A DNA stretch of 64,000 bases from Chiloscyllium plagiosum. Taxonomy: Eukaryota. Location of the stretch: the NCBI RefSeq assembly GCF_004010195.1, contig NC_057734.1:43198957-43262956 (forward strand), read 5' to 3'. The translations under genes were made by a program, and so were the position numbers. Below are positions 5,252 through 62,501 of this stretch, in pieces. Every line of letters begins with the position of its first letter. Within the stretch, counting starts at the first letter, position 1. The notes below the pieces were generated by a model that ran no database searches, was not told the DNA's origin, and was given only the letters and a program-made list of their open reading frames with translations.

Positions 5252-6890
5252 AAGAGTGTGGTGCTGGAGAAGCACAGCAGGTCAGGCAGCATCTGAGGAG
5301 CAGGAGAGTCATATGTTTCGAGCATAAGCTCTTCATCAGGGCCAAGGGGGCTGAGAGATAAATGAGAAGGGTTGCGGTGGGGCTGAGGGCAAGGTAGCTG
5401 GGAATGCCATAGGTAGATGAAGGTGGGGGTGAAGGTGGTGGGTCGGAGAGGAGGGTGGAGTGGATAGGTGGAAGGAAGATGGACAGCGAGGACAGTGCCG
5501 AGTTGGAAGATTGGATCTGGGGTAGGGTGGAGGAGGAGAAATGAGGAAACTGGTAAAATCTACATTGATCCCCTGTGGTTGGAGGGTCTCAAGGAGGAAC
5601 ATGAGGCTTTCTTCCTCCAGGAGAAAGTGAGTCTTCAGATGCTGGAGATCAAAGTTGAAACTTTATTGCTGGAACAGCACAGCAGGTCAGGCAGCATCCA
5701 GGGAACAGGAGATTCGACGTTTCGGGCTCCTGAAGAAGGGCCTGTGCCCGAAACGTCGAATCTCCTGTTCCCTGGATGCTGCCTGACCTGCTGTGCTGTT
5801 CCAGCAATAAAGTTTCAACTTTCTTCCTCCAGGGTCAGGTGGCTAGAGTTTGGCGGCGGAGGAGGCCCAGGACTAGCATACCCTTGGCGGGGGGGCAAGT
5901 TTTAAATTCGGCCACAGGGCGGTGGGGTTGTTTAGTGCGTGTGTCCTAGGGATGTTCTCTGAAACATACTACAAGTTGGTGTCCTGTGTCCCCAACGTAC
6001 AGGATTAAGTTAAAAATCACTCAACACCAGGTTATAGTCCAACAGGTTTATTTGGAAGCACTGGCTTTCGAAGTGCTGCTCTTCATCAGGAGACCACATC
6101 GACAGCAACAGACCATAGATGATATATGTGAAAGTACAGGTAAATCTGTCGGATGTGGAAGGATCCTTTGGGGCCTTGGATGGAGGTGAGGGTGGAGGTG
6201 TGGGTGCAGGTTTTGCATTTCTTGTGGAGGCTGGGAAGGTGCTGGGAGTGAAGGGTGGGCTACTGGGGTGTTGTGGACGTTACAAGGGAGTCGCAGAGTG
6301 AATGGTCTCTCCGGAATGCAGATAGGGGTGGGGAGAGAAATATATCCCTAGTGGTGAGGTCTCTTTGTAGACCCACTGCCCTGTCGTCAAACACTTTAAC
6401 TCCCCCTCCCACTCTGCCAAGGACATGCAAGTCTTGGGCCTCCTCCACCGCCAAACTCAAGTAACCCGACACCTGGAGGAAGAACGCCTCATCTTCTGCC
6501 TTCGGACCCTCCAACCACACAGGATCAATGTGGATTTCACCAGTTTCCTCATTACCCCTCCTCCCACCCTATCCCAGATCCAACATTTCAACTCAACACC
6601 TCCTTCTTGAACTGTCCGACCTGTCTATTTTCCTTCCCACCTACCTGCTCCACCCTTCTCTCTGACCTATCACCTTCAACCACACCTTCCTTTACCTATT
6701 GTATTCCCAGCTACCTTCCCTCCCATTTATCTCTCAGCCTCCTTGGGTCACCCCCTCATTCCTGATGAAGAGCTTACGCTTGAAACAATGACTCTCCTGC
6801 TTCTCAGATACTGCCTGACCGGCTGTGCTTCTCCGGCATCAAATTCGTCAACTCTGATCTCCAGCATCTGCAGTTCTCACTTTCTCCAAG
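5252..6890. mobile_element. Truncated Penelope-like element with inverted arms (minus arm ~5252-6365, plus arm ~6370-6890) and two nested short insertions
   Basis: GIY-YIG C-terminal remnants (EEERLIFCLRTLQPHRINVDF), pseudo-LTR ends carrying hammerhead cores on both sides, near-identical flanks GTGAAAATAAGG (5240) and GTGAAAATTAGG (6891) consistent with a TSD. Confidence 0.8.
5622..5819. mobile_element. Short palindromic PLE-derived element with an intact hammerhead core
   Basis: Perfect inverted arms; core CTGAAGA-A-GGGC-CTGT-GCCC-GAAACGTC at 5730-5757; 14-bp TSD TTTCTTCCTCCAGG at 5608 and 5820. Confidence 0.85.
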
Positions 6891-6940
6891 GTGAAAATTA
6901 GGCAGGACGCCTGCCCCGTGTCTAAACTGGGATAACGCAT

Positions 6941-7072
6941 ATTCCTGATGAAAGGCTTTTGCCCGAAACGTCGATTTTCCTGCTCCTCAGATGCTGCCTG
7001 ACCTGCTGTGCTTTTCCAGCACCACTGTAATCTAGACTCTGATTTCCAGCATTTGCAGTCCTCACTTTTGCC
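6941..7072 (+). mobile_element. PLE pseudo-LTR fragment with a minimal hammerhead core
   Basis: CTGATGAAAGGCTTTTGCCCGAAACGTC at 6945-6972, followed by the family tail (GATGCTGCCTGACCTGCTGTGC...CAGTCCTCACTTT). Confidence 0.75.
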
Positions 7073-7073
7073 A

Positions 7074-10070
7074 ACGCAGAAAGAATGCTACTCATAATAA
7101 GTATACAGTTTTGGATACTGTTGTGGGGGACAATCTACCAGGGCTCTGTGGCTCAGAAAGGAAGGCATGAGAATAGGGGAGTAATAGTGATAGGAAATTC
7201 AGTCTGAGAGGAACAGGCAGGAGAATCTGTGGTCACGAGTGAGACTCCCAGATAGTATATTGCCTCCAGGGTGCTAGGGTCAGGGATGTCTCAGATTGAG
7301 TCTACAAGATTCTTAAGGGGGAGGGGGAGCAGCCAGAAGTCATGGTACACATTGGTAACAATGACATAGGTAAGGAAAGGGATGAGGACCTGAAAAGAGA
7401 ATATAGGGAGTTAAGTTGCAAGCTAGAAAGCAGATGAGCAGAGTAGTAATCTTAGGATTGCTACTGGTGCCAAGGGCTAGTGAGGCTAGGAATAGAGATC
7501 CAATGCAGATGAACAAGTGGCAGCAGGGTGGTGTAGGAGGGAGGGCTTCAGATGTGTGGATCATTGGGATACCTTCTGGGGAAGGTGGGACCTGTACAAG
7601 AAGGACGGTTGCACCTGAACTGGAGGGGCACCAATATCCTGGGCGGGAGGTTTTCTCGAGTTCTTCAGGAGGGTTTATACTAGATAGGCAGGGAGGTGGG
7701 AACCTGAGCTATGGATCAGATGATGGAGTAGGTAGTGAATAGCTCGATACAGCGTGCAGAGAGATTGTGAAGGGCGATAGGCACTTGATAGAGCAAAGGT
7801 GCGGTCAGTGTGATGGGTTGAAGTGTGTCTGTTTTAATGCAAGAAGTATAAGGGCAACTTACAGCATGGATTAGTATTTGGAATTATGATGTTATGGCCA
7901 TTATGGAGAGTTGGATATCACAGAGGCAGGAATGGTTATTGGATGTTCCAGGGTTTAGATGTTTCAAAAGAAATCAGTTGGGGTGGGGTGGGGGTGGGGG
8001 GGGGGGGTGGAGGGGTGGAGAGGTAAAAGAGGCAGAGGAGTTGCATTGGTAATCAGGAATAGTATCACTGCTGCAGAAAGGGAGGTAATCGAGGAGAGTT
8101 TGTCTACAGAATCAGTATGGGTGAAAGTCAGAAACAGGAAAGGAGCACTCACTTTATTGGGAGTTTTCTACAGACCACCCAATAGCAACAGAGAGTTGGA
8201 AGAGCAGATTCCTAATATTGATTGGAACTCCCTTAGTTCAAATAGTTTGGATGGAGCAGTTTTAGTCAGGTATGTGTATAGGAAGGTTTCCTGAATCAAT
8301 AGTCAGATTGGCCAACTAGAGGGGAGGCCATATTGGATTTGGTACTTGGCAACAAACTAGGCCAGGTGTCAGATCTTTCAGTGGGAGAGCATTTCATGTG
8401 ATAGTGATCACAACTGCCTGACCTTTACTATATTCATCAAGAGGGATAGGAGCAAACAGTTCAGGAAAGTACATAATTGGGAGAGGGGGAATTACAATAC
8501 TATTAAGCAGGAACTGGGGTGCCTAAATTGAGAACAAATGTTCTCAGGGAAATGCACGACAGAGATGTGGAGGTTGTTTAGGAAGCACTTGCTGACAGTA
8601 CTGGACAGGTTTGTCCCACTGAGGCAAGGAAGAGATGGTAGGTTGAAAGAACCTTGGGTGACAAGGGATGTGGAACATCTAGTCAAGAGGAAGAAGGAAG
8701 CTTACTTAAGGTTGTGAAATCAAGAAACAGACAGGGCTTCAGAGGGTTACAAGGTAGCCAGGAAGGAACTGAAGAATGAACTTAGGAAAGCTAGAAGGGG
8801 GGATGAAAAAGGTAGGATTAAGAAAAATCCTAAAGCATTCTACACTTTTTGAGGAGCAAGAGGATGGCCAGAGAGGGTAGGGCCGATCGGGATAGTGGAG
8901 AGAACTTGTACCGGAGTCGGAGGAGTAGGGGTGGTCCTTAATGGATACTTAATGGATGTGGTGCACATGGATTTTAGCAAGGCGTTTGATAAGGTTCCCC
9001 ATGGTAGGCTCACTCAGAAAGTAAGGAGGCATCAGATACAGGGAAATCTGGCTGTCTGGATACATAATTGGCTGGCACATAGAAGACAGAGGGTGGTGGT
9101 AGATGGAAAGTATTCAGCCTGGAGTTCGGTGACCAAAGGTGTTCTGCAGGGATCGGTTCTGGGACCTCTGCTCTTTGTGATTTTTGTAAATGACTTGGTT
9201 GAAGAAGTGGAAGGTGGGGTAGTAAGTTTGCCGATGACACGAAGGTCAGTGGAGTTATGGATAGTGTGGAGTACTATTGTAGATTGCAATGGGACATTGA
9301 CAAGATGCAGAACTGGGCTGATAAGTGGCAGATGGAGTTCAACCTGGAAAAGTGTGAAGTGATTCACTTTGGAAGATCGAATTTGAATGCAGAATACAGG
9401 GTTAAAGGTAGGATTCTTGGCTGTGTGGAGGAACAGAGTGATCTTGGGGTCCATGTCCATAGATTTGTCAAAGTTGCCACCCAAATTGATAGGGTTGTTT
9501 AGAGGGCTTTCATTAGCAGGGGATTGAGTTTAAAAGCTGCGAGGTTATATTGCAACTCTGCAGAGTCCTGGTTAGACCATACTTGAAATATTGTGTTCAG
9601 TTCTGATTGCCTCATTATTGGAAAGATGTGGAAGCTTTAGAGAGAAAATTTACCAGGATGCTGCTTGGACTGGAGGGCATTTAGAAAGATTTAGGGATCT
9701 AAGACTTTTCTCATTAGAGCAAAGACAGAGGTGTACAAGATATTGAGAGGCATAGATAGACTGGATAGCCAGAGACATTTTCCCATGGCAGAAATGTCTA
9801 TCACGAGGGGACATAATTTTAAGGTAATTGGAGGAAGGTTTAGGGGAGATGTCAGAAGTAGGTTCTTTACACAGAGTTGTGAGTGCGTGAAATGCACTGC
9901 CAGCAATGGTAGAGTCAGATACATTAGTGACATTTAAGTGACTCTTGGATAGGCACATGGAAGATAGTACAATGAAGGGTATGTAGGTTAGTTTGATCTT
10001 AGAGTATGATAAACATCTAGCACAACATCAAGGGCCGAAGGGCCTGTACTATGCTCTACTGTTCTATGTT
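7074..10070 (+). mobile_element. Long decayed CR1 LINE (ORF1 esterase-like region, APE, RT, 3' tail) with internal deletions
   Basis: APE remnant (GRGVALVIRNSI...ESVWVKVRN...LLGVFYRPPN), RT remnant (MDFSKAFDKVPH...GVLQGSVLGPLLFVIFVNDL; WQMEFNLEKCEVIHFG) and tail TGTTCTATGTTC; many frameshifts. Confidence 0.9.
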
Positions 10071-10529
10071 CAAGTGTTCTCAAGTAATCTAGAGGTGTTC
10101 TTCAAAACTGTGGACACTGTTAATATGGAATACATATTGACTAATAGTAATAGCATTTACTTATGACAATTCGTAACTTCCCTTCGATTATATGATTAAT
10201 TATTTAATTATTTTGTAATATTGGGGCAACCTTGTGTTCCTTTCTGATTATTTTATAAAACAATACAAAGGCCCACCAGACTATTTATTTGTCAAATGTA
10301 GCCTTTTTAAAAAAATAAACCAGCAAAGCTGACACTGGTTAAGCATCACCAATTAAAAGGCAAATCCACTCAATCCCTCCTTAAGGAGTTGAAAACGTAA
10401 AATATAATTTAAAGAAGAAACTCATTATTTGTGCCAACTGGACTTCATATGTTGATATTCACACAACCTGTGAATATCAAAACCTTTCTATCCCATGTCC
10501 ACATCATGATCATTGGTGGCCCCAAAGAG

Positions 10530-10815: not shown

Positions 10816-10834
10816 CTAAACACATGCTTTTTTT

Positions 10835-15511: not shown

Positions 15512-16120
15512 GGGGGCGGCATGGTGGCTCAGTGATTAGCACTGCTGCCTCACAGCTCCAGGGACCCAAGTTCAATTCCCACCTTGGGCGACTGTCTGTG
15601 TGGGTTTCTTCTGGGTGCTCCTGTTTCCTACCACAATCCAGGGTAGGTGAATTGGCCATACTAAATTGTCCCATAGCATTAGGTGCTAAGTGTCAGAGAG
15701 GGGAATGGGTCTGGGTGGGTTCCTCTTCAGAGAGTCGGTGTGCACCTGTTGAGCCTCAGGGCCTGTTTCCATACTACAGGCAATCAAAGAAAGGTTGGTG
15801 GCATGGTGGCTCAGTGATTAGCACTGCTGCTTAACAGCGCCAGGGACCCGGGTTTGATTCCCACCTTAGGTGACTGTCTGTGCTGAGTTTGTACATTCTC
15901 CCGTGTTTGTGCGGGTTTCCTCCGGGTTCTCCAGTTTCCTCCCACAGTCCAAAGATGTGCAGGTTAGGTGAATTGACCATGCTAAATTACCTATAGTGTT
16001 TGGTACATTAGTCAGGAGTGATTGTGGCGGAATGGGTCTCGGTGGGTTGCTGTTCACAGATTTAGTGTGGACTTGTTGGGCCGAAGGGCCTGTTTCCATA
16101 CTGTAGGGAATGTAATCCAA
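15512..16120 (+). mobile_element. Two tandem HE1-like tRNA-derived V-SINEs
   Basis: Heads GGCATGGTGGCTCAGTGATTAGCACTGCTGC...GGTTTGATTCC (Pol III A/B boxes) at ~15515 and ~15797; CR1-like tail GGGCCGAAGGGCCTGTTTCC. Confidence 0.85.
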
Positions 16121-17001: not shown

Positions 17002-17162
17002 AGTTAAAAACCACACCGCACCAGGTTATAGTCCAACTGGTTTATTTGGAAGCACTAGCTTTCAGAGCGCTGCTGCTCCTTCATCAGCTGGTTGTGAAGT
17101 ATAAGATTGTAAGACACAGAATTTATAGCATTTATAACTCTGTACACCCCAGTCCAACACCA
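17002..17162 (-). mobile_element. PLE-derived short repeat, second family (AGCU-type hammerhead)
   Basis: The minus strand reads CTGATGAAGGAGCAGCAGCGCTCTGAAAGCTAGTGC. Related copies at ~6009-6090, 18153-18215, 33110-33230 and 61838-61985. Confidence 0.7.
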
Positions 17163-17760: not shown

Positions 17761-18359
17761 GTCTCTGGTGCAAGTGTTTAAATATTGCATTAATTCAATC
17801 TACTATTCATGTTAACTTGATTTAAAATATTTACCTGATTCTGCTCGAAAAGTAATAATCCGAAAGCAAAATGAGGCTGAGTATCGCAAATGTATCTCTA
17901 CAGAGGCTGCCGAGTATCCCTATTACGTTTTTTTATGTCAATGGTACAGTTGATTTTAAATTCCTCTGAGTAAAGACTAATCATTTGGCTGTAGTTGGAG
18001 CACATTTTGTATTTTAATTCCAAGCAGTAGACTTCAATAGCAGACAAAAACAAAACAATTTTCTCAACTGGGCTTCAATCAATAGTAGAGTAGTGAAAAA
18101 ACAATATTGTGGCAGTGCATGTAGTAACCCAGAGACAGACATTAGCCATTGATTTGGAAAGCTAGTGCTTCCAATTAAACCTGTTGGACTATAACCTGGT
18201 GTTGTGTGATTTTTAAAATTAGCCATTGGACTTGTTCTGCCATTCAGCTTTACCATGAACTGATCTGTACCTCAATCTCATTTATCTGCCTTTGTCTCTT
18301 TTTGGGAGGAGAATTCCAAATTTTTGCTGCTCTTTGTGAGGGACAATTTTGCTTTTTTT

Positions 18360-18668
18360 TTTAGATTACCTTACAGTGTGGAAACAGGCCCGTTAGCCCA
18401 ACAAGTCCACACCGACCCGCCGAAGCGCAACCCACCCATACCCCTACATTTTACCCCTATATCTAACACTGCGGGCAATTTAGCATGGCCAATTCACCTG
18501 ACCTACACATCTTTGGACTCTGGGAGGAAACCGGAGCACCCGGAGGAAACCCACGCAGACACGAGGAGAACGTGCAAACTCCACACAGTCAGTCGCCTGA
18601 GGCGGGAATTGAACCCGGGTTTCTGGCGCTGTGAGGCAATAGTGCTAACCACTGTGCCACCGTGCCGC
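18360..18668 (-). mobile_element. HE1-like tRNA-derived V-SINE (young copy)
   Basis: The reverse complement reads GCGGCACGGTGGCACAGTGGTTAGCACT...CCCGGGTTCAATTCCCGCC with intact CpGs, ending in a TAATCTA tail. Confidence 0.88.
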
Positions 18669-19304
18669 TTTGTTTACCTTAATTGCATAATTGGTCACCA
18701 TAATAAAAATTATAACTTAAAGGTCATATTCTCTTATTCTGAGTTCTCCTACCAGTGGAACCAAATTGTTAAGCCATCAGTTAGCCATTAATATTTGTTT
18801 TATCAAATCACTTTATCATTTTTAAATAGCCCTTATGGGACCCCACAAGACAAGTTTGTTGAACCTGCTTTCAATTTCATGTTTTAAGCCCTGGTTTATC
18901 ATTACTGACTACATGTCATTAGAAAGAGCTCTTACATGATCCTTCCTATAAAATATGACATTCAATATACCTACAAATAAGTAAAAGTTAATTTTATGCA
19001 AAACTGTTATCATGTCTTAGACTTAATGTTAATGCGGTAATGAAAAGAGAAAGTATAGATGCTCAGATCAGACAGCATATCTAAGGAAAGCATAGGCAGA
19101 GTTGATGTTTCAGGTCAATGACCTTTTCAATGGAATTGGTGAAATGTTCGACCTGTTTTCTCTTTGCAAGTTCTCCTTGACCTGTTGAATATTTCCAACA
19201 CTTTTTGGTTTTTATTTTGAGTTTCCAGCATCAGCTATATTTCATGAATGCAGTGATTTTGTAATGAATAATGCAAAATTTGTTCTTTAGTAAGTTTTCC
19301 ATTA

Positions 19305-19498
19305 GTTGAAACTTTATTGCTGGAACAGCACAGCAGGTCAGGCAGCATCCAGGGAACAGGAGATTCGACGTTTCGGGCACAGGCCCTTCCCGAAACGTCG
19401 AATCTCCTGTTCCCTGGATGCTGCCTGACCTGCTGTGCTGTCCCAGCAATAAAGTTTCAACTTTGATCTCCAGCATCTGCAGACCTCACTTTCTCCTC
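19305..19498. mobile_element. Short palindromic PLE-derived element (same young subfamily as 5622-5819)
   Basis: Near-perfect inverted arms; perfect 15-bp TSD GTAAGTTTTCCATTA at 19290 and 19499. Confidence 0.87.
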
Positions 19499-20656: not shown

Positions 20657-20838
20657 ATGGCTGTACCACAGCAGGCTGTGAGTTCTGGCCTCGAGGCGCA
20701 GCAAACCCTCCTGGCCACAGTCAGTGGAAATGTACAGAAATACGCAGTCAAGAAGAAGAAGATTCTCAGTGCAGAAGAGCTAGAGTTGTATGAGCTAACG
20801 CAAGCTGCCGGTATTGTCATGGACCAGGAAGTCTTTAA
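20657..20838 (+). CDS. MZT2: Mitotic-spindle organizing protein 2 (MOZART2), coding exon 1
   Basis: MAVPQQ...QKYAVKKKKILSAEELELYELTQAAGIVMDQEVFK matches the MOZART2 motif (KKVLS.EE.ELYEL.QAAG..D..VFK). Phase-2 donor AA|GTAAGT at 20838/20839. Confidence 0.93.
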
Positions 20839-21339
20839 GTAAGTCTGAAAATGATCACAAAGGTGAGAAATAACCCTGGAAATCTGAAATTAAAATTGGA
20901 TAATGCTGGAATGGCTCTTTGACTTGAAATATGATTAAACTTTCCTGCAGGTTTTAATTGATTCTTCATAGCTTAGCAAATAATGCCTGTCTGTGGAATG
21001 GTAAAATATGATGCTTATGAAGCAAATTATTTTCTCAAGCAATGAACATCTGGACCACAGTGCTGCTAAGATGCAGACATTGCAAATTCTTATCTTTATA
21101 GGAACATAGGATCAGGGGTAGGCTATTCAGCCCCTTGAGCCTTTTCTGCCATTTAATGAGATGATGACTGATCTGTGACCTAACTCCAGTTACTTGCCTT
21201 TGGTCCATATCCCTTAATACCTTTGCTGAACAAAAATGATTTATCTCAGATTTATAACTGATCCAGCACCAGTTGCCATTCATGGAATATTATCTCTTGA
21301 ATAGGATTGTTTGAGCAAAGCCTTTTATAATGCTCCTTC

Positions 21340-22431: not shown

Positions 22432-22627
22432 GTCAGTACAGTCAACATCCAAGGAGCACAAGAATCGACCTTTTGGACATAAGCCCTTCATCAGGAATTC
22501 CTGATGGAGGGCTTATGCCTGAAACGTAAATTCTCGTGCTCCTTGGATACTACCTGACCTGCTGTGCTTTTCCAGCACCACACTCTTGACTCTGATCTAC
22601 AGCATCTGCAGTCCTCACTTTCTTCTA
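22432..22627. mobile_element. Palindromic PLE-derived element with head-to-head hammerhead remnants
   Basis: Centre CATAAGCCCTTCATCAGGAATTCCTGATGGAGGGCTTATG with inverted arms. Confidence 0.75.
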
Positions 22628-24113: not shown

Positions 24114-24435
24114 TGGAGAAAGTGAGGACTGCAGATGTTAGAGACCAGAGTCGAGAGTGTGCAACATTTAAGAGGCATTTGGATGGGTGTATGAATAGGA
24201 AGGGTTTGGAGGGATATGGGCTGGGTGCTGGCAGGTGGGACTAGACAGGTTTGACTGAAGGGTCTGTTTCCATGCTGTACATCTCTATGACTCTATGGTG
24301 CTGGAAAAGCACAGGTCAAGTAGCATCCGAGGAGCAGGAGAATTGATGTTTTGGGCATAAGCTCAGATTCCTGATGAAGGATTTATGCCCAAAACGTCGA
24401 TTCTCCTGCTTCTCAGATGCTGCCTGATTGACTGT
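24114..24435. mobile_element. Palindromic PLE-derived element interrupted by a CR1 tail (~24160-24296)
   Basis: GAGAAAGTGAGGACTGCAGATG...GAGAGTGT | CR1 tail | GGTGCTGGAAAAGCAC...CCTGATGAAGGATTTATGCCCAAAACGTC. Confidence 0.75.
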
Positions 24436-25100
24436 ACCCCCATTTTTTATTTTGGCCTAATGAGTGTTTGGCATGCACTTACCCTGTCATTAGGCTAAAT
24501 TTATAAGAAGTTCACATAAGCATTTTTGTTACTTAATGTAGCGTGCATTATCTAAAGACTCAGCCTACAAATCTGAGTTCTTTTGTTTCTTTTTGAGCTC
24601 ATTATTTGCGGTGCTGGATGGTGGAGGGATCATGCTACATAAGTTGCATTTATTCTACAGTTCTCATGTCCAAACGTTTCTCCTGATTCAGCAGAAAAAT
24701 GCATTTATCTTCCATACATTTTACTTCAGGGTTAATTTTTAAAAAGCTCCAGAGCTTGGTTAAGGTAATTTGTTTTGCCTCAATAACGCCAGGTTGAGTT
24801 ATCTCAACCTTTCTTTAGATCAGTGGCCAAAACCTCCCAATCATTCGCCTTGTCTTTTGAACAATTTGATATCTCTTTGTCTTTTAAATGAGCATACAAT
24901 TTTGGGGACATTTTGTGATTTATTTAAGTTACTCTTAATGCTTTTCAAGATTTTCCTGTACTGTAAACTGTACTGTTCATCCTTGTGATGTCCCTTGAGG
25001 TGACACTTCAAGCAAGGCTCATTGATTTTGTGACTATCATCTGCTGAGTTTTGGAAGGATCTTGTTCATCTGATGGCTGTGTCTGTTTCTCACCTGTCAG

Positions 25101-25249
25101 GATAATTGTGGATTTGTTGAAGATGAATGTGGCTCCATTGGCAGTTTTCCAGATGCTGAAAGCCATGTGCGCAGGACACCGAATTACAGAGATGTCTTCA
25201 ACTGAGACGCCATGCACAACAACACAGAGCAATCTCGCAGACACCAGAG
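25101..25249 (+). CDS. MZT2: MOZART2 coding exon 2
   Basis: Acceptor TTTCTCACCTGTCAG|G completes the Lys codon from the previous exon. Encodes IIVDLLKMNVAPLAVFQMLKAMCAG..., the conserved MOZART2 core. Phase-1 donor G|GTGAGA. Confidence 0.95.
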
Positions 25250-30699: not shown

Positions 30700-32075
30700 A
30701 AAGACTGATTAGGGATAGTCAGCATGACTTTGTGTGTGGGAAATCATGTCTCACGAAATTGATTGAATTTTTTCAATAAGTAACAAGAGGATTGATGAGG
30801 GCAGAGCAGTGGATGTGATCTATATGGCCTTCAGTAAGGCATTCTATAAGATTCCTCATGGGAGACTGGTTAGCAAGGTTAGATCTCATGGAATACAGGG
30901 AGAACTAGCTATTTGGAAGAAGAACTGGCTTGATGGTAGAAGATAGACGGTGGTGGGAGAGGGTTGTTTTTCAGACTGGAAGCCTGTGATCCGTGGTGTG
31001 CCACAAGGTTCGATGTTGGGTCCACTACTTTTCATTATTCATATAAATGATTTGGATGTGAACATAGGAGGTATAATTTGTAAGTTTGCAGATTACACCA
31101 AAATTGGAAGTGTAGTGGACTGTGGAGAAGGTTACCTCCAATTAAACAGTTTCTTGATCAGATGGGCCAATGGGCTGAGGAGTGGCAGATGGGGTTTATT
31201 TTCAATAAATGCAAGGTGTTGTATTTTGGAAATGCAAATCAGAGAGCAGGAATTATACACTTCATGGTAAGGTTAATGGGAGTGTTGCTGAACCAAGGAA
31301 CTCTGGAGTGCAGGTTCATAGTTCCTTGAAAGCAGGTAGATAGAATAGTGAAGAGGGCATTTGGTAAGCTTTTCTTTATTGGTCTGAGCATTTAATATAG
31401 GAAGTGGAAGATCATGTTTCGGCTGTACAAGACCTTTGTTTGGCCACTTTTGGAATATTGCGTGCAATTCTGGTCGTCTTCCTATCGGAAGGATGTTGTG
31501 AAACTTGAAAGGGTTTGGAAAAGATTTACAAGGATATTGCCAGGTTTAGAGGATTTCAGCTGAATAGGCTGGGACTGTTTTCCCTGGAGTGTCGGAGGCT
31601 GAGGGGTGACCATATAGAGGTTTATAAAATCATGAGGACCAAAGGTAGGACAGATAATGGTTGTGGGAGTCCAGAACTAGAGGGCATAGGGTTAGGATGA
31701 GAGGGAAAAGGTATAAAAGGGACATTAAGGGACAACTTTTTCACACAGACGGTGGTGAGTGTATAGAATGAGCTGCCAGAGGAAGTGATGGAGACTGGTA
31801 CAATTTACAGTATTTAAAAGGCATCTGAATGAAATAGGAAGGGTTTAGAGGGATATGGCCTCATTCCTGATGAAGAGCACTTGCTCGAAATGTTGATTCT
31901 CCTGCTCCTCGGATGCTGCCTGACCTGCTATGCTTTTCCAGCACCACACTCTCGACTTGCAGGGATATGGGCCAAGTGCTGGCAAATGGGACTCGATTAG
32001 GTCCGGATATGTGGTCGGCATTGTCGAGTTGGACAAAGGATCTGTTTTCGTGCTGTACATTTCTATAACTCTAGG
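30700..32075 (+). mobile_element. CR1/HER1 LINE RT-to-tail segment with a PLE hammerhead insertion (31861-31960)
   Basis: ORF 30950..31270 (GVPQGSMLGPLLFIIHINDLD...KFADYTK). The insertion is flanked by AGGGATATGGCC and AGGGATATGGGCC. Confidence 0.88.
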
Positions 32076-35000
32076 ACTCTCATGCTTGCCAGAGAGAGTG
32101 AGAGACAGAATGTTGAATAGCTGGTCAGCCTTATTTATCAAAGGAGCAGTTACAGAGGCTATGTGTTAATTTCATGTCTATTCATCCTATTGAATAATGT
32201 ACAGTACATGGGTCAATGAGACTTCATGAAATCGATGGAGAAGATGTTGGGTTTAAGATTTTTTTCACCCCCATTTCTCTTTTTTTTTTCCCATTCTCCC
32301 CCCCCCCCCCCCCCCGAAAGCAAATGGTAATTTCCTTTTACCTTTTAAGGTTAAATTAGTGATGATGCCATCAATTGTCTTTAAAAAAGCATCACTAAAA
32401 ATATTCTCATTGGATCTAATCAATTTCATGGAGACTTGAATGAAATCATGCTCTTTATACAATACATGATAAATCCTATAGAGCATTGAGTTTGCAGAAG
32501 GTATTGTTGGTACCAGTGGATGCCACATGCTTCCTCTTGATGCTGCCAGAAACTGGCAAGACAGCAGAAGGGAGGCAGGCAACCAGAGCAATCCCCTCCC
32601 TCCCATGTGGGACGTTCCCTGAATTGCTGCTTCAGTCAGACCATCTATTTGCACAGATAAAATTTTAACTTTAACTTGTCTTGCCAGAACTGTTCTCTTT
32701 CTTTAAAATATAACTTAGTTTATTATCTCCTTGAAGGTCACTCTTGCAATTTTGTTATAATGTTTGGTCGGGTTTTCTCTGCCAGTAGGTCATGTTCACT
32801 TTGCAACAAGATAGTTGCTGTTTATTATTGGAGCCTGTATTTTAAAATGTAGGTCAAAACTTGGCTTTTACTTAAGATCTTGATGACCACACTGAGAAGG
32901 CACATGCAGGTAAATGTCAAGTAAATAGGAAATTGAGCTCAAATGATGATGCCAATGATCAGCTAGCCACCTGAGACTTGACAGTTAGACTTGCATGATT
33001 AACCACTTGGGTTCCTGAGAGCTGCCAGTTTCTATTGGACTGGACCTTATCGCATCTATATCAGCAGAATATATTGGACTGCTTTGTCCTTGTGATATAA
33101 TCTCCATAACCACCTGAGGAAGGAGAAGTGCTCTGAAAGCTAGTGCTTCCAAATAAACCTGTTGGACTATAACCTGGTGTTGTGTGATTTTTAACTTCGT
33201 ACACCCCAGTCCAACACCAGCACCTCCAAATCATAGTCTAAGAATGTACTGAAGGCAAATGTTTTTTAAGATAATTCTTAAAAGTTTATTTTTCTAACCA
33301 ATCTGTTCAGAGATGTTATTACACAACTCTGGTGCAGGTGTAACTTTGAACGCAGGCCTCCCAGTCAAAGGGTAGGGACACTACTACTATACCAGATTTG
33401 TATTGCACAGACCAAGTGGTCTGAACAATAATTCCTGATCATCTTATTGGAGCAGAATGCCACACTAATGGCTCTTAACCTTTTGCTCCACAAATGTGCT
33501 GCTTGAATAAAGATCTTTGACCATCTTTGGATGTTGAAATATGCAGTGATGTGAATCATAGTGAGCAAAGGACCTTCAATTTATTTTTAATTATAATTAT
33601 CAATGTATTTTAACACCTTTTCAGGATGATTACTCCCAACCAGGTTGACTTTTAAAAGCATTAAATCAGTCCTAATTTATTTTAGAAGGTTAACTACATA
33701 ACAGCGTCATCTGTGAAAAGTCAATTCACTGTTTAAAAAAACAGTTTCTGGATTGAGGGCTGTGCTTAGAGCTATTTCATAATGGGGACTTGGCCCTATA
33801 CATTTCGAAAGAACTCATCAAATTCTTGTGAATTTTCCTACCAACTGAGTCTTGCTAATGAGCTATTGAATCCATGTCTTTATGTCCAATCTTTTGATGT
33901 TTTGTGAACATTGGGAGGGGCATTGTAGCTTCTCACTGCTTGTACTAGTCTTTTTTCCTTCCTCATTTTCCTTCACGCCCATTCCCTTCCTTTCTTTGAA
34001 TAGCTTGAGGTAAGACATAAATGTGTTGGACAGTAATGATCTCTTAATAGAGGGCTATAGAGCTACTCAGCATTGAATATGCTTCAACTTTTTTATAAAT
34101 TGGAGAAGAGGTATTATGAAAATTGTATTTTTCTAAAAGAGCGGAGATGATTTACATGTGATGGGAATGCTTTAGTCTATTGTCATCCACACAATATCAT
34201 TAAGTGTATTTTACAACATGACATGCTTTGTTTTAAATTTTACTTGCATAGATCCATTTTAAATACTATCTGTAATGTACTCCCAGAAACCGAACCCCAG
34301 TTATGAGAAATTTGCTATTGTGCAAAAGAAAATGTCAGCGTTGTATAAACTTATTTTGCGTATGTAATATGAAGAGGAAGTCTTCTGTTGGGGTTCCTTT
34401 AAGAAAATAAAATCCTTTTGTTCAATCTATCCATTAGCACATCTGAAATGCTATTGGCTAATTACTAAATATTAATTCTGTTCCTTTACATTATTTATCA
34501 AGTAATTTTCACAGTCAGCTCCCCCATGATATACATAATTAAAAAGCTTCCTAATAAAAAGTGAAAAAGGCAAAATCAAAATGAGGGTACATTAGAAACT
34601 CTCATTGCTTTTTCTTAAAGTGACTTTGATGATGACTCACTCTTTCAATATTGTCATCCGTGGTTATACAACTTAAGTTAAAGCTAAACTGTTTCTTTGA
34701 TAGATCACTTGAGTTCATATCTTTGCAATGGGCTATGTTTCTGTGCCTCTTTCCATCTTGTGTTCCTTTTAATGTGTTTTCATCTCTCTCTTTGAAATAG
34801 AGCATTCGTTTATCTCCGCAAAGAACAGTAAAATCCCAGCACTCTCCTTTTCCTCTGCCCTTCGATCTCCGAGACTAGCCACTAAGATTGTGGTCTACAA
34901 CCCTGCTGATGCTTGCTCACCTCTCTCTCAAGGTCCCCCTGGTTCCTTCCAGTTTTCTTGCTGCCTGTTCTCACCCTTCTCAGGTTGCGTTTATTAGTTT

Positions 35001-42057: not shown

Positions 42058-42170
42058 CTGAAGAAGAGTCATATCAGACTCGAAACGTTAACTCTGTTTC
42101 TCTCCACAGGTCCTCTGAGTTTCTCCAGCATTCTGTGTTTCAGATTCCAGCATCTGCAGTATTTTGCCTT
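42058..42170 (+). mobile_element. PLE-derived repeat with an intact minimal hammerhead core (distinct stem II)
   Basis: CTGAAGA-A-GAGTC-ATATCA-GACTC-GAAACGTT, followed by a TTTCAGATTCCAGCATCTGCAGT tail. Confidence 0.7.
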
Positions 42171-47028: not shown

Positions 47029-47210
47029 TGAGAAATAAATCCAACACTGCCATCAGTGGAGCACAGACACAGATGGAGCGAAGCACCAGCCGTGAAGGAT
47101 CCAGCCAGCGGGTGCCACGGCAGCCTAGTGCAACCAGAGTCCCCAAAGGCAGTGGTGCTGGGAAAACCACAGGAAGTGGCAGCAGCTCACAAACGACATC
47201 CAGTCAGTAG
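47029..47210 (+). CDS. MZT2: MOZART2 last coding exon
   Basis: Long polypyrimidine tract and CTCAG|TG completing Val. Encodes RNKS...ERSTSREGSSQRVPRQPSATRVPKG, matching the MZT2 C-terminal motif (REGSSQRMPRQPSATRLPKG). Stop TAG at 47208-47210; spliced CDS is 513 nt = 170 aa. Confidence 0.93.
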
Positions 47211-49044: not shown

Positions 49045-49232
49045 GGAGAAAGTGAGGACTGCAGATGCTGGAGATCAGAGCTGAAAATGTGTTGCTGGAA
49101 AAGCGCAACAGGTCAGGCAGCATCCGAGGAGCAGGAGCATTCCCGAAGGAGGGCTCATGCCCAAAGCGTCAATTCTCCTGCTCCTTGGATGCTGCCTGAC
49201 CTGCTGTGCTTTTCCAGCAACACATTTTCAGC
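49045..49232. mobile_element. Palindromic PLE-derived element
   Basis: Inverted arms GCTGAAAATGTGTTGCTGGAAAAG...CTTTTCCAGCAACACATTTTCAGC; TSD ATGGTTCC(C)TAATA at 49031 and 49233. Confidence 0.8.
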
Positions 49233-55105: not shown

Positions 55106-55318
55106 AGTGTGGTGCTGGAAAAGCACAGCAGGTAAGGCAGCATCCTAGGAGGAAGGGAATCGACGATTCGGGCATAAGCACTTCATTGTATTCCTGATGA
55201 AGGGCTTATGCCCAGAACGTCGACTCTCCTGCTCCTCGTATGCTGCCTGACCAGCTGTGCTTTTCCAGTGCCACACTCTCCTCTCTGATCTACAGCAACT
55301 GCAGTCCTCACTTTCTCC
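55106..55318. mobile_element. Palindromic PLE-derived element inserted in a short tRNA-derived SINE head (~55030)
   Basis: Inverted arms with centre CTTCATTGTATTCCTGATGAAGGGCTTATGCCCAGAACGTC; flanks TGCCCCAAGG and TGCCCCAGGG. Confidence 0.75.
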
Positions 55319-55935: not shown

Positions 55936-55945
55936 CAAATCATGA

Positions 55946-56900
55946 CAGGTCAGTGAGCAAGACTGACCAGGGCTTGGGATCAGAGGGCAACAGGTCAGGG
56001 GTCAAGACTGACCAGGGCTTGGGAATCAAAGGCTAACAGGTCAGGGGTCAAGACTGACCAGGGCTTGGGAATCAAAGGGTAACAGGTCAGGGGTCAAGAC
56101 CGACCAGGGCTTGGGGATCAGAGGGCAACAGGTCAGGGGTCAAGACTGACCAGGGTTTGGGAATCAAAGGCTAACAGGTCAGGGGTCAAGATTGACCAGG
56201 GCTTGGGAATCAAAGGGTAACAGGTCAGGGGTCAAGACCGACCAGGGCTTGGGGATCAGAGGGCAACAGGTCAGGGGTCAAGACTGACCAGGGCTTGGGA
56301 ATCAAAGGGTAACAGGTCAGGGGTCAAGACTGACCAGGGCTTGAGGAACAGAGGGCAATAGGTCAGGGGTCAAGACCAACCAGGGCTTGGGAATCAAAGG
56401 GTAACAGGTCAGGGGTCAAGACCGACCAGAACTTGGGGTCATAGCTCAATAGGTTGGGGGGGAGATTGACCAGGGCTTGGGGTCACATTGCAATAGGTTG
56501 GGGGAAAGATTGACCATGGCTTGGGATCATTGAGGACAATAAGTCAGGCGACAAGATTGACCAGGACATAAGGATCACTGAGGGCAAAAGGTCAGGTAGC
56601 ATCACTGATCAGTGGAGGTCACTGAGGGAAATAGAGCTGGGGGCAAAACTTGCTAGGATTTGAGGGTCACTGAGAGTAAAGGTCAGTGGAGGGTGAAAGA
56701 CTGACCAGGTTTTGGGGGTCAATGGAGGCAAGACCAACCAGCTTTTGATGGTCACTGAGAGCAGCAACTCTGGAGATTACAATGACCAGATCTTAAGGTA
56801 TAGGAGCAGAACTGAAGATAAGGGACCAACATTGACCAGTGTTTGGATCCGTAAGGTCAAGAAACTAGAGCAGATCAGCAGACAGTAGACCAGAATGACA
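55946..56900. repeat. 46-bp minisatellite (11 well-preserved units to ~56450, then decaying)
   Basis: Unit CAGGTCAGGGGTCAAGACTGACCAGGGCTTGGGAATCAAAGGGTAA, with starts at 55946, 55991, 56037, 56083, 56129, 56175, 56221, 56267, 56313, 56359 and 56405. Confidence 0.95.
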
Positions 56901-57221: not shown

Positions 57222-60118
57222 CGAAGAGTTTAGTGCTGGAGAAGACAGCTGGTCAGGTAGCAACCGAGGAGAGGAGAGTCAATGTTTCGAGCATAATCTC
57301 TTCATCATGTATATGGGGCGGACCCAAAGGGGCTGAAAGATAAATGGGAGGGGGGTGGAACTAGGGGAAAGGTAGCTGGGAATGCGATTGGTAGATGAAG
57401 GTGTGGGGTGATGGTGATAGGTCAGAGTGGAGGATGGAGCAGATAGGTGGGAAGGAAGATGGACAGATAGTACAGTTCAAGAGGGTAGTGCTGAGTTGGA
57501 AGGTTGGATCTGGAATAAGGTGGGTGGAGGGGAAATGAGGAAACTGGTGAAATCCACATTAATCCAGTGTGGTTGGAAGGTCCCAAGGAGGAAGCTGAGG
57601 TGTTCTTCTTCCAGGTGTCGGGTGGCTAGAGTTTAGTGGTAGAGGAGGCCCAACACTTGCATGTCCTTATCGGAGTGGGAGGGGTGTTAAAGTGTTCGGG
57701 CAGATGGGGGGGGGGGTAGGGTTGTTTAGTGCATGTGCCCAGAGATGTTCTCTGAAACGTTCCGCAAGTTGGCATCCTGTCTCCCCAATGTAGAAGAGAG
57801 CACACTGAGAGCAACAGACAAAGTAGATGACGTGTGTGGAAGTACAGATGCAGAAGGATCCTTTGGGGCCTTGGATGAAGGTGAGGGGGGAGCTGTGGGC
57901 GCAGGTTTTGCACCTCTGGCGGTGGCAGGGGAAGGTGCTGGGAGTGGAAGGTGGGTTGGTCAGGGGCGTGGACCTGACGAGAAAGTCATGGAGGGAATGG
58001 TCTCTTCACAATGCAGGTAGGAGTATGGAGGGAAATATATCCATGGGATAATGGGTCTGTTTGTAGGTGGTGGAAATGGCAGAGGATGATGCATTGTATC
58101 TGGAGGTTAGTGGAATGGAAGGTGAGGACTGAGGGCAATTCTGTCCTTGTTGCGATTGGAGAGTGGGATTCAACTCGCGGATACCTCCTCCCTCTGCCCC
58201 CTCAATCACGACCTCACCTTCCATCACCAAACCATCATCTCCCAGACCATCCACAACCTCATCACCTCAGGGATCTCCTACCCACAGCCTTCAACCTCAT
58301 GGTCCGGGAACCCCAAACCGCCCGGTTCTACCTCCTATCCAAAATTCACAAACCTGACTGCCCCGGTCGACCCATCATCCCAGCATACTCCTGCCCCACC
58401 AAACTTATCTCTGCATACTTTGACACTGTCCTGTCTCCCTTGGTCCAGGAACTCTCCACATACATTTGGGACACCACCCACATCCTCCACCTCCTCCATG
58501 ACTTTCATTTCCCTGGTCCCCAGTGCCTCATCTTCACTATGGACATCCATCCCCCATGATGAAGGCCTCCAAGTCCTCCGTTTCTTCCTCTCCTGCCGAC
58601 CCCAACCAGTACCCTTCCACTGTCACACTCAACCAATTAGCTGAAGTAGTCCTCAACAATTTTTCTTTCGAATCCTCCCAGTACCTCCAGACCAAAGGGG
58701 TAGCCGTGGGCACCCACATGGGTCTCAGCAATACCTGCCTCTTCGTCGGATATGTGGAACAGTCCATCTTCCGCAGCAACACTGGCACTTTTTCCCCACT
58801 TTTTCCTCCGCTACATTGATGTATCAGTGCCACCTCATGCTCCCATGAGGAGGTAGAACAGTTCATCAACTTCAGGAACACCTTCCACCCTGACCTCAAG
58901 TTCACCTGGACCATCCTGGACAACACCCTCACCTTCCTGGACCTCTCCATCTCCATTTCCGGTGATCGACTTAACACTGAGATCGACTACAAACCCACTG
59001 ACTCCCACAGTTATCTGGACTACACCTCCTCCCATCTGCATCCTGTAAAAATGCTATTCCTTATTCCTAATTCCTCCGCCATCCCAGAAGGCCTCCTTCT
59101 TCAAAGACTGCAATTTGCCCTCCCACGTGGTTGACAATGCCTTCCAGTACATCTCCTGCACTTTCCACACTTCCACCCTTGGATCCTACCCCTCCAACCA
59201 CAACACGGATAGAACCCACCCACCCCGGTCCTCACCTTCTACCCCACCAACCTCTGGATACATCACATCATCCTCTGCCATTTCTGCCACCTACAAACAG
59301 ACGCCACCATCAGGGATATATTTCCCTCCCCACACCTACCTGCGTTGCAGAGAGACCATGCCCTCTGTGATTCCCTTGTTTGGTCGATGCCCCCGAGGTG
59401 CAAAACCTGTGACCACATATCCCCCCTCACCTTCATGCAAGGCCCCAGAGGATCCTTCAGCATATGAGAGAGATTTACCTGTACTTCCACACACATTATC
59501 TTCTGTGTCTGTTGCTCTCGATGTGGTCACCTCTACATTGGGGAGACAGGATGCCAACTTGCAGTACGTTTTAGAGAACATTACTGGGACACACGCACAA
59601 AACAACCCTACCGCCGAACCTCCTTCCCTCTCCGCCAAGGACATGCAAGTGCTGGGCCTCCTCTGCCGCCAAACTCTAGCCACAAACGCCTGGGGGAAGA
59701 AAGCCTCAGCTTCCTCCTTGGGACCCTCCAACTGCACGGAATCAATGTGTATTTCACCAGTTCCCTCATTTCCCCATCTCCCCACTTTATCCCAGATCCA
59801 ACCTTGCAACTGGGAACCACCCTTTTGAACTGTCATACCTGTTCATCTTCCTTCCCACCTCTCCGCTCCACCCTCCTCTCCGACCTATCACCATCACCCC
59901 CACCCCAGTCTACCTGTCACCTTCCCAGCTGCCTGTCCCCAAAATCACCCCCCTTCCATTTATCTCTCAGTCTCCTTGGGCCCCCACCCCACATGCTTGA
60001 TGAAGAGCTTATACTCGAAACAGCAACTCTCCTGCTCCTTGGATGCTGCCCGACCGGATGTACTTTTCCAGCACCACACTCTTTGACTTTGATCTCCAGC
60101 ATCTGCAGTCCTCATTTC
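57222..60118. mobile_element. Penelope-like element with an inverted 5' arm (minus ~57222-58175; plus ~58176-60118), inserted in an old CR1
   Basis: RT remnants (ARFYLLSKIHKPDCPGRPII; LIFTMDI; YLQTKGVAVGT; LTFLDL), GIY-YIG remnants (C..C...YIGETG), pseudo-LTR hammerheads at both ends, and a 15-bp direct repeat CTCCTTCATAACTCT at 57207 and 60119. Confidence 0.88.
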
Positions 60119-60133
60119 CTCCTTCATAACTCT

Positions 60134-60920: not shown

Positions 60921-61813
60921 CTGGGCAAATACACCACATCCACTTGTTACATTCTCAAAAGAATTGTTACACCTCAGTGCAGACCTGAGGAATCAGAAAA
61001 CCAGAACAGTCCTGAGGCAAGCGGTGTTTTTCAGCTGAAGACTCACCTGCCCTCAGTTAGATGTAGCAGGTCCCAGGCATAGAGAGAAGGGACATCTTCC
61101 CAGTGCCCTTGCTGATACTTATTCCTAACCACTATCGCTATCTTGTTATTTTCACACTGCTGTGTGTGGGACATTCCTTGTGTAAAATGTTTTCTATCTA
61201 CATTACACTTCAAAAGCACTTGTTTACTTATAAAGCATTTTGGATGTCCTGAGGTGTAGAAAGGCATTGTATAGATGCAAGACTTTCTTTTTGAGGTACA
61301 ATATATTGAATTAAATGGGAATATTAAGATCCCTGATGTTCAGTGCTGTGTAATTCTGTAAAGGAGGTAAACAATCAGGATTAGACAGCCCTGCGTATGG
61401 TGCCAGTAAATAAAGTTCTACTTGTTTTAAGACTGTAACAATCTCATTTGAAATCAAATATTAAGAGAGGGAATGGGAACCTGGATGTGAGGGTCTGGAT
61501 CAAATACAAAGATTTACTGAAGATTACAAAACAAGCAAAGGTTTACCAAAGACCCTGTCTGAAAGATTCATACAGGTGTCAGTGTGATTACTCTAGATGT
61601 GATTTTAGTTCCTCATTTTGGATTGTCTGTTCTTGTGTTTTGTATATGGTAAGGGGGTTTTGAAACAGGGCTGTGCAGCTTCAGTGGCAGACTGGACGTA
61701 GGTGGCTACAGTGTCTCTGGTTTAGCAACGTGCATTAATTTTGGATGCAAAATATCCTCTACCTGTTTGCTTATTTAAAAACCATTCACTGGTTTGTGTT
61801 CTTTATTTCCAAA

Positions 61814-61985
61814 ATGTGGAGGTGCCTGTGTTGGACCAAGTCAGAAATCACACGACACCAGGTTATAGTCCAACAGGTTTATTTAAAATCACAAGCTTTC
61901 ATCCTGCTGCTCCTTCATCACTCCAAAAACTTGTGATTTCAAATAAACCTATTGGACTATAACCTGGTATTGTGTGACTTCTGAC
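61814..61985. mobile_element. Palindromic PLE-derived element, AGCU family
   Basis: Arms AAGTCAGAAATCACACGACACCAGGTTATAGTCCAACAGGTTTATTT and its reverse complement; flanks CTTTATTTCCAAA and CTTTATTTTCAAA. Confidence 0.72.
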
Positions 61986-62405
61986 TTTATTTTCAAAGTT
62001 TGAATTTCAGCTTTTAACAACCTGCAGATTTCTAACCAAACACTCCTGGTTGGAAAGTTTTGCAAGCTAAATTTTGCTACTCAAGTAACTGTGCTTTCCC
62101 TGAGTTGTTCTATCTGTCTTTTTTGGGGAGATATTTTGTTGCTTCTGATCCCAGTCCTCTGAACTGTTTGAACAATTTTTAATCTCTGGGTTTTCTGAAC
62201 TAAAATCCACCCTTGATCATCCTGAATCAAAAACAAGCGAATGACCTTCAAAGTTTTTCCCGCCTGTTGTAAACTTTTCACAGTCAAAACAATCTTCCAT
62301 TAACACTTCAGGGGCTCCCTGCTCTCTAACACATACTGGATTAAGTCACTGTCTCGGAGAACTGTCTGACCTAGTGATGTTTTTTTTAAAAGGCTTTCAC
62401 AAAAG

Positions 62406-62501
62406 CCTCATTCCTGAAGAAGGGCTTGTGCCCGAAACGTCGATTCTCCTGTTCCCTGGATGCTGCCTGACCTGCTGCGCTTTTCCAGCAACATATTTTC
62501 A
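62406..62501 (+). mobile_element. Minimal hammerhead-bearing PLE insertion (96 bp)
   Basis: CTGAAGA-A-GGGC-TTGT-GCCC-GAAACGTC at 62414-62441; 13-bp TSD GCTTTCACAAAAG at 62393 and 62502. Confidence 0.85.

What the first reader, a model, noticed from the sequence alone, without database searches (positions are those of the whole stretch)
5730..62441. Window-wide set of minimal hammerhead ribozyme cores with covarying palindromic stem III
Seen: many repeats carry CUGANGA-A-[stem II]-GAAA-NN-UH. One family has GGGC/GCCC and GAAACGUC (5730, 6945, 62414; degenerate at ~22500, 24370, 31867, 55194). A second has GGAGC/GCUC(C/U) and GAAAGCUA (minus strand ~6060-6089 and ~17053-17089; plus ~33114). A third has GAGUC/GACUC and GAAACGUU (42058). 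Stem II differs between families but stays paired, and the reduced stem III is always a 4-nt palindrome (ACGU versus AGCU), which is what a dimer-cleaving ribozyme would need. Established: Penelope-like elements carry minimal hammerheads reported to cleave as dimers. Inference: at this density a shark genome would hold a very large number of such motifs, several of them sense-oriented inside MZT2 pre-mRNA.
Basis: partly seen in the sequence, partly recalled or inferred. Interest (0 to 1): 0.7.

Follow-up and report, generated by a model that had tools for sequence, protein, structure and literature searches.

The report
Penelope retroelement stubs carrying minimal hammerheads
The tiny self-cutting-RNA (hammerhead) motifs are real and very numerous, but they sit in end-stubs of a known kind of jumping gene (Penelope-like elements), most copies are decayed, and their front ends suggest they were likely copied from the uncut, capped start of the element's RNA.

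Summary
Observation mostly right: 5 intact minimal-hammerhead cores in the window, 0 in 12 shuffles; three exact patterns give 112,757 matches in the 3.56-Gb genome, controls 0. [quoted passage not shown] 'Always palindromic' holds for families, not copies: 76 of 127 keep it; the essential G12 decays like other CpG bases. Only 1 complete motif is sense inside MZT2, and introns show no significant orientation bias. Beyond the literature searched: short copies stop 4-12 nt before the core, about 30 nt after a TATA-like box (66 of 209 at -5..-2; 2 of 209 at the cut site); one family is polyadenylated ~30 nt after the cut site. So the ribozyme likely forms the first ~35 nt of the element's RNA and the stubs are run-off copies of uncut RNA. 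A threefold excess of starts at the cut site is mostly one microhomology junction; inconclusive. Cleavage untested. The scan reported the same readings before on other DNA, this genome included.

The parts
5622..5819 (.). Family A inverted pair: + arm with intact core at 5730 (no tail), - arm with tail but no CUGA core; 15-bp target-site duplication; nested in an older family-A remnant
   Evidence: hairpin -168.9 kcal/mol for 5631-5830
5251..5621 (-). Older family A remnant (endonuclease end plus pLTR; damaged core at 5339)
   Evidence: 72% to L195
6004..6090 (-). Family B stub, core at 6089, palindrome and U16.1 lost
6372..6887 (+). Family A remnant with pLTR, damaged core at 6762
6941..7068 (+). 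Family A stub, core at 6945, helix II closing pair broken
17002..17162 (-). Family B pLTR with TATAAAT box, intact core at 17087 but no helix I, AATAAA signal; 14-bp target-site duplication
   Evidence: poly(A) reads of the family
18157..18216 (+). Family B fragment starting at GAAA (no CUGA core), 11-bp duplication; carries the poly(A) signal
19304..19497 (.). Family A inverted pair, neither arm has the CUGA core; 15-bp duplication
20702..20845 (+). MZT2 coding exon match (host gene)
   Evidence: PF12926 E 5.7e-18
22439..22623 (.). Family A inverted pair, cores 22494- and 22501+, both damaged
24296..24427 (.). Family A inverted pair, core 24371+ with G12 lost
25099..25212 (+). MZT2 coding exon match (host gene)
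31859..31958 (+). Family A stub, core 31867, GAGC/GCUC helix II, palindrome broken; 10-bp duplication
33102..33234 (+). Family B stub with tail; the only complete minimal hammerhead sense inside MZT2 (core 33114, predicted cut after CUA)
42058..42167 (+). Family C stub, intact core and helix II, no helix I
47029..47183 (+). MZT2 last coding exon match (host gene)
   Evidence: E 6e-12 to MZT2B chain; acceptor read
49045..49232 (.). Family A inverted pair, damaged core 49143+; 8-bp duplication
55108..55318 (.). Family A inverted pair, damaged core 55194+
57234..60122 (.). Long family A remnant: inverted 5' part (57234-58161, -), then reverse transcriptase, cysteine linker region and GIY-YIG-like frames running into the pLTR (damaged core 59997+)
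   Evidence: GIY-YIG E 0.061, under cut-off; 70% over 1772 nt to L195
61826..61990 (.). Family B inverted pair, both arms damaged
62406..62504 (+). Family A stub, intact core 62414, no tail, 13-bp duplication

Best explanation
These repeats are end-stubs of several Penelope-like retrotransposon families, each carrying the minimal hammerhead known from such elements, and most stubs are likely dead run-off copies of the uncut, capped front end of the element's RNA. Inferred steps: a TATA-type promoter in the upstream part of the pLTR starts the RNA 4 nt (family A) or about 8 nt (family B) before the core, so the 5' strand of helix I is the first bases of the transcript; the element's protein nicks the target and starts copying at one of two internal sites about 60 and 95 nt after the cut site (the optional tail); when it starts on the 5' pLTR it runs off the RNA end, leaving a 100-130 bp stub, often with an inverted second arm. 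The ribozyme is conserved in the replicating master lineages, where it would cut as a weak, protein-assisted dimer through the 4-nt palindrome; after insertion the copies decay neutrally and do little to host pre-mRNA.
For: Shown: family A pLTR follows RT and GIY-YIG-like frames; family B follows a GIY-YIG-like frame with a cysteine linker in L105. 90 of 209 family-A copies have an inverted arm; 3' ends fall in two peaks about 35 nt apart (83 and 99 of 209) and in 40 of 45 inverted pairs exactly one arm has the tail, in none both, as described for PLEs (PMC8557442, PMC11167929). 5' ends of 209 copies: 66 at -5..-2, 14 at -10..-6, 9 in the 49 positions -59..-11, 40 long, 2 at +27..+30. Family B: 27 of 73 at -12..-1, 5 at -43..-15, 16 long. 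TATAAAT exact in 11 of 16 long B copies at -37..-40; a TTAT-type motif at -33..-40 in 32 of 34 long A copies, so the wall moves with the box. G before the wall in 19 of 48 copies where parents have C or T (p 0.002). Poly(A) tails ~15 nt after A(A/T)TAAA in family B RNA, reads running across the cut site, no pile of read ends. G12 substituted in 18.9% of 127 copies against 15-23% at the other five CpG positions; common non-CpG variation only at N7, loop II and downstream. Orientation in inferred introns: 34 sense, 50 antisense intact motifs (p 0.10); solo copies A 53/58, B 20/18. Fits PMC11167929: anole PLE hammerhead cuts only with the protein, and uncut RNA is the main template in vitro.
Against: No transcription start was measured: the one raw-read run with coverage gave no pile of starts. 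The TATA-like motif of family A was picked by eye and has no control. The extra G is weaker in the youngest copies (by-eye tally: C 15, G 5, T 3, A 3 of 26) and is often part of the target duplication or an inverted arm. The family-B wall is broad. Starts exactly at the cut site are about three times as frequent as at -2 and +2 nt (230 against 66 and 77). Antisense motifs outnumber sense ones, though not significantly. Pfam support for the proteins is under cut-off; no intact element was recovered (4 fetched were gapped); the parent of family C was not traced.
Confidence: 0.72

Rival explanations
1. The stubs are a self-standing non-autonomous mini-element (SINE- or retrozyme-like) with a fixed 5' end, amplified from short master copies.
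For: Sharp 5' wall and target duplications; non-autonomous PLE derivatives with hammerheads are described (bioRxiv 10.64898/2026.07.22.740005).
Against: Stubs lack the upstream TATA-like box; inversion junctions differ from copy to copy, even between the nearly identical pairs 5622-5819 and 19304-19497; each stub type has long copies with the same diagnostic bases; no tandem array of the unit in the window.
Confidence: 0.1
2. The ribozyme cuts often in vivo and cut or circularised RNA is a real template; long copies come from RNA circles and a minority of stubs from cut RNA.
For: 230 copies start exactly at the cut site against 66 and 77 two bases either side; 8 of 30 fetched truncations in +24..+31 start there; core and palindrome are kept across families; poly(A) use ~30 nt after the cut site means the 3' pLTR is incomplete in such RNAs, which a circle or strand transfer would repair (inference). 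The circle model is in PMC4209133.
Against: 62 of the first 100 such copies are preceded by CAG (by-eye tally) and 17 of 20 of these fetched are inverted-arm junctions sharing a GA microhomology (13 by the script's test, 4 by eye); 16 more look like one-base insertions. The class is about 2% of copies at most (estimate). 2 of 209 in the unselected sample. This rival can hold alongside the best explanation.
Confidence: 0.3
3. One reading: dispersed copies act as ribozymes in host pre-mRNA such as MZT2.
For: One complete motif at 33114 is sense in an MZT2 intron; intact motifs are somewhat fewer sense than antisense, 34 against 50.
Against: p 0.10, and 31 against 37 for motifs with 2 bp or more of helix I; neutral decay of G12; no intact partner nearby; active dimer fold 11-22 kcal/mol above the dimer minimum for the 5 intact window copies; published activity is low even as dimers (PMC4209133).
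Confidence: 0.06
4. The 5' wall is made by reverse transcriptase stalling or by microhomology at the hammerhead fold, not by the RNA's start.
For: Junctions often use 1-3 nt of microhomology; many ends scatter inside the motif (44 of 209 at -1..+9).
Against: The wall lies on the far side of the fold, few ends fall in the next 49 positions (9 of 209), and its place differs between families in step with the TATA box.
Confidence: 0.12

Closest known systems
Minimal hammerheads (min-HHR) in pLTRs of metazoan PLEs; Cervera and De la Pena 2014, PMC4209133 (parts 1-2 of 4 read)
   Same: Core boxes, extra nucleotide between 9 and 10.1, G10.1-C11.1, palindromic 15.2-16.2, short helix I, many families per genome, mostly single motifs in truncated PLEs, also close pairs on opposite strands; reported from fish Xena, Poseidon and Neptune elements.
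   Different: Sharks are not named in the parts read; copy number here (over 112,000 exact cores, patterns without helix I) against about 4,000 (coelacanth) and 9,000 (Xenopus) with their descriptor, so not strictly comparable; helix II is 4-5 bp rather than 7-8; they do not map copy ends against the motif.
Poseidon element of the green anole; Frangieh et al. 2024, PMC11167929 (parts 1-2 of 4 read)
   Same: Two internal start sites of reverse transcription giving the optional tail; hammerhead in the pLTR; uncut RNA the main template; no RNA-seq ends at the cut site.
   Different: Families A and B have a Neptune/Nematis-type cysteine linker; a transcription start at the ribozyme, run-off stubs and a poly(A) site after the cut are not reported in the parts read.
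EN+ PLE insertion anatomy; Craig et al. 2021, PMC8557442, and Arkhipova et al. 2013, PMC3846280 (passages read)
   Same: 5' truncation, inverted 5' copy, 30-40 bp tail at one end, target duplications, microhomology junctions; a putative TATA box and initiator in a rotifer pLTR; solo pLTRs.
   Different: Solo pLTRs there were put down to recombination or deletion; here they dominate and share a sharp 5' end.
Drosophila virilis Penelope promoter; Schostak et al. 2008, PMC2377424 (passages read)
   Same: Promoter and start site lie in the pLTR.
   Different: Internal, TATA-less promoter with a downstream intron; here an upstream TATA-type box about 30 nt before the inferred start.
Non-LTR retrozymes; bioRxiv 10.64898/2026.07.22.740005 (parts 1-2 of 5 and passages read)
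   Same: PLE-derived, hammerhead-bearing, non-coding; found in one chondrichthyan.
   Different: Retrozymes are head-to-tail arrays; these are dispersed solo or inverted stubs.

Membership tests
PLE minimal hammerhead (Cervera and De la Pena 2014) | CUGANGA and GAAA boxes, U16.1-H17 | tested here: met
   5 intact in the window; 112,757 exact pattern matches
PLE minimal hammerhead (Cervera and De la Pena 2014) | Extra nucleotide between 9 and 10.1 and G10.1-C11.1 pair | tested here: met
   Extra A in 125 of 127, G10.1 in 120 of 127; families A, B, C
PLE minimal hammerhead (Cervera and De la Pena 2014) | Palindromic 15.1-16.1 without loop, covarying between families | tested here: met
   ACGU in A, C, D; AGCU in B: one double change between families; broken by CpG decay in 51 of 127 family-A copies
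PLE minimal hammerhead (Cervera and De la Pena 2014) | Short helix I | tested here: inconclusive
   4 bp in one A subfamily (L117), 3 bp with a U-U mismatch in two others (L099, L060), 3 bp in B (L032); absent at 17087 and 42058
PLE minimal hammerhead (Cervera and De la Pena 2014) | Located in the pLTR of a PLE | tested here: met
   Families A and B follow RT/GIY-YIG-like frames; family C only by a shared downstream motif
PLE minimal hammerhead (Cervera and De la Pena 2014) | Self-cleavage as a dimer | not testable with these tools
   Needs a bench assay; nearest-neighbour energies put the active dimer 5-15 kcal/mol above the minimum for 4 parent-type RNAs but do not score the core
EN+ Penelope-like elements (Neptune/Nematis type) | Single frame with RT, CX2-5CxxC linker and C-terminal GIY-YIG | tested here: inconclusive
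   Motifs seen by eye in broken frames; Pfam GIY-YIG E 0.061 and RVT_1 E 0.23, under cut-off; no intact copy recovered; no tree built
EN+ Penelope-like elements (Neptune/Nematis type) | Inverted 5' copy, optional 30-40 bp tail at one end, target duplications | tested here: met
   90 of 209 inverted; 40 of 45 pairs with the tail on one arm only; duplications at 8 of 12 window insertions tested
EN+ Penelope-like elements (Neptune/Nematis type) | pLTR-ORF-pLTR partial tandem | tested here: inconclusive
   The 4 long candidates fetched had assembly gaps and showed no clean pair of direct pLTRs
Non-LTR retrozymes | Head-to-tail tandem units each with a hammerhead | tested here: not met
   No such array in the window; copies are solo or inverted
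Canonical type I hammerhead (Rfam) | Match to a curated hammerhead model with full helix III and loop contacts | tested here: not met
   No hammerhead family among 9 matches to E 5

The most novel reading that the evidence does not exclude
The shark-type pLTR works like a retroviral LTR: upstream TATA promoter, a short segment from cap to poly(A) site that is almost entirely the hammerhead, then the start sites of reverse transcription. The 100,000-plus stubs are then integrated strong-stop-like cDNAs, a genome-wide fossil record of where PLE RNA starts, is cut and is primed, and full-length copies need either a strand transfer or ribozyme cutting and circularisation.
Probability: 0.4. Interest if true: 0.6.

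Novelty: new member of a known kind. Interest (0 to 1): 0.3.

Why it matters
As ribozymes these are ordinary members of a class described in 2014, and there is little sign that they affect host genes. What is useful is the number: with over 100,000 copies, the ends of the insertions can be read statistically. They place the ribozyme at the very start of the RNA, indicate that uncut RNA was the usual template, and set a ceiling of about 2% on templates cut by the ribozyme. That bears on an open question, what PLE hammerheads do and how pLTRs are regenerated, and makes it testable with cap mapping and one in vitro assay. I did not find this in print in 7 answered searches; the library lacks most subscription papers and the 2017 dimer-cleavage paper.

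Tried and rejected
Rfam scan: no hammerhead model fits; the miRNA-precursor hits are the inverted pairs. Chance: rejected by shuffles and reversed-pattern controls. Search for an intact parent: the 4 places with the longest open frames were assembly gaps. The RT remnant at 52461 was followed to 8 loci; no strict hammerhead in them. The 2017 paper on dimer cleavage (PMC5785218) is not held; known only from a review's passages. A splice acceptor or an upstream NUH cut as cause of the 5' wall was rejected by reading the sequence (no AG there; no partner for helix III). Orientation test: genes were inferred from the strand of Laminin_G_2 exon matches, not from annotation; 84 motifs give power only for large effects. 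Rows dropped: 61 of 270 anchors (other families, chance, low score) before the 209; 12 of 139 copies with indels before the 127; 3 of 76 family-B copies; anchors within 260 nt of a stretch end. The selection of the 127 allowed at most 3 mismatches in positions 0-11, so low divergence there is partly built in; G12 and the CpG comparison lie outside that filter. Supplements of the papers were not read; their family lists may include sharks.
Full report
Check of the observation. All cited places hold CUGANGA ... GAAA-NN-UH-like sequence. A strict descriptor finds 5 intact motifs (5730+, 17087-, 33114+, 42058+, 62414+) and none in 12 shuffles. Rfam has no matching hammerhead model.

What the repeats are. 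Family A runs on from reverse-transcriptase and GIY-YIG-like frames: window 58491-60122 aligns at 70% over 1772 nt with such a remnant in L195. A long family-B copy in L105 follows a GIY-YIG-like frame with a cysteine linker, the Neptune/Nematis mark named in PMC8557442. Pfam scores are under cut-off and no intact element was recovered, so the clade label rests on motifs seen by eye. Family C was not traced to a parent. I sampled 120 stretches of 10 kb (1,135,319 called bases) plus the window. Of 270 family-A anchors 209 aligned to long copies. 90 of 209 carry an inverted arm; 3' ends fall in two peaks about 35 nt apart; in 40 of 45 inverted pairs one arm alone has the tail. Eight of 12 window insertions tested have 8-15 bp duplications. 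This is the published PLE anatomy.

Conservation. Between families helix II changes and stays paired, and the palindrome switches ACGU/AGCU; within family A a paired A-U change at 10.2-11.2 appears in 4 of 127 copies. Common non-CpG variation is confined to N7, loop II and downstream positions. Individual copies decay without regard to function: G12 is substituted in 18.9% of 127 copies, against 15.0-22.8% at the five other CpG positions, and 76 of 127 keep the palindrome. So selection acts on master elements, not on insertions (inference). Helix I is weak: 3-4 bp in parent-type sequences, and the active dimer lies 5-15 kcal/mol above the dimer minimum (the energy model ignores the core). The copy at 5730 is predicted to sit in a perfect 77-bp hairpin.

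MZT2. Exon matches at 20702, 25099 and about 47029 place the gene on +; its first exon is presumed at the CpG-rich stretch near 17.4-17.9 kb and was not shown. Of five sense cores between matched exons only 33114 is complete. In introns of six inferred long genes, intact motifs are 34 sense and 50 antisense (p 0.10), solo copies 53/58 and 20/18: no strong purge, though a mild one is not excluded.

Where copies begin. With C3 as 0 and the first base after the cut as +28, the 209 family-A 5' ends are: 40 at -60 or beyond, 9 at -59..-11, 14 at -10..-6, 66 at -5..-2, 44 at -1..+9, 20 at +10..+26, 2 at +27..+30, 14 beyond. Family B: 16 long, 5 at -43..-15, 27 at -12..-1, 22 at +1..+22, 3 at +28 or beyond. 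Long B copies have TATAAAT at -37..-40 (11 of 16 exact, 14 with one mismatch); long A copies a TTAT-type motif at -33..-40 (32 of 34; motif chosen by eye) and an initiator-like pyrimidine-A context at -4 (initiator consensus recalled). A G precedes the wall in 19 of 48 copies where parents have C or T (p 0.002), the sign of copying a cap (established for LINE-type copying, recalled); it is weaker in the youngest copies (5 of 26 by eye) and often shared with the target. I infer that the wall is the transcription start and that the RNA copied was uncut, as found in vitro for the anole element.

Cut-site footprint. Prompted by earlier notes on other genomes, I counted starts genome-wide with patterns of equal expected efficiency: 230 at +28, 77 at +30, 66 at +26 (the last needs one more intact CpG base, so about 80 when corrected). 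The excess is real as a count, but 62 of the first 100 share the flank CAG and 17 of 20 of those fetched are inverted-arm junctions with a GA microhomology. After removing that class little excess is left. The class is about 2% of copies at most (estimate). Inconclusive.

RNA. In raw poly(A) run X14, family-B reads carry non-genomic poly(A) starting about 15 nt after A(A/T)TAAA, about 30 nt after the cut site (508 reads at 18194; 386 and 262 at 17026 and 17029); reads cross the cut site and no pile of starts or ends is listed. Reads come from the whole family at 85% likeness, from one run, and may be host transcripts ending in stubs. If the element's own RNA ends there, both start sites of reverse transcription lie beyond the poly(A) site, so copying would have to start on the 5' pLTR, which would explain the stubs (inference).

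Known versus new. The motif class, palindrome, extra nucleotide, dimer model, massive copy numbers and opposite-strand pairs are in PMC4209133. A putative TATA box and initiator in a pLTR are in PMC3846280. The start-site wall and the poly(A) site were not found in the searches named under Why it matters. The scan's own notes report the same readings many times, in this genome and others; my start-site idea was noted before that look-up and those notes are not counted as support.

Verdict. Real feature, new members of a known kind, mostly inert copies; modest added value as a fossil record of PLE copying. Interest 0.3.

Noticed in passing
window 4431-4808 (-): First exon of an oxysterol-binding-protein-like gene (PH domain, Pfam E 8e-6; gene name recalled), facing away from MZT2; the copies at 5.3-7.1 kb lie upstream of it.
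   Followed up: partly
window 52461-53238 (+): Remnant of another PLE lineage (30,938 first-look candidates), linked by similarity to a fourth hammerhead family D (GUC/GAC helix II, ACGU) whose TATAAA box lies about 53 nt before the core and whose copies are mostly long (8 of 9): a useful contrast to the stub-rich families.
   Followed up: partly
G000:C16:42817618-42817933: Tandem array of a ~47-bp unit made of the post-cut part of the family A pLTR (6 matches).
   Followed up: no
L160, L187 and G000:C3:125743582: Copies in which the core's first bases join directly to the first base after the cut site, deleting most of the ribozyme; possible template jump or microhomology deletion.
   Followed up: no
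window 17002-17162 (-): A family B pLTR with its own TATAAAT box lies antisense about 300 bp from the presumed MZT2 promoter and points away from the gene; one unique contig piece of run X2 lies just downstream.
   Followed up: no
window 4059-4454 and 55939-56565: Tandem repeats of 66 bp and 46 bp next to CpG-rich stretches; the stretch at 55.4-56.0 kb may be another promoter.
   Followed up: no
window 15516-16005, 18416-18661, 62529-62729: Copies of a tRNA-like SINE, and LINE reverse-transcriptase remnants at 8853-9362 and elsewhere.
   Followed up: no
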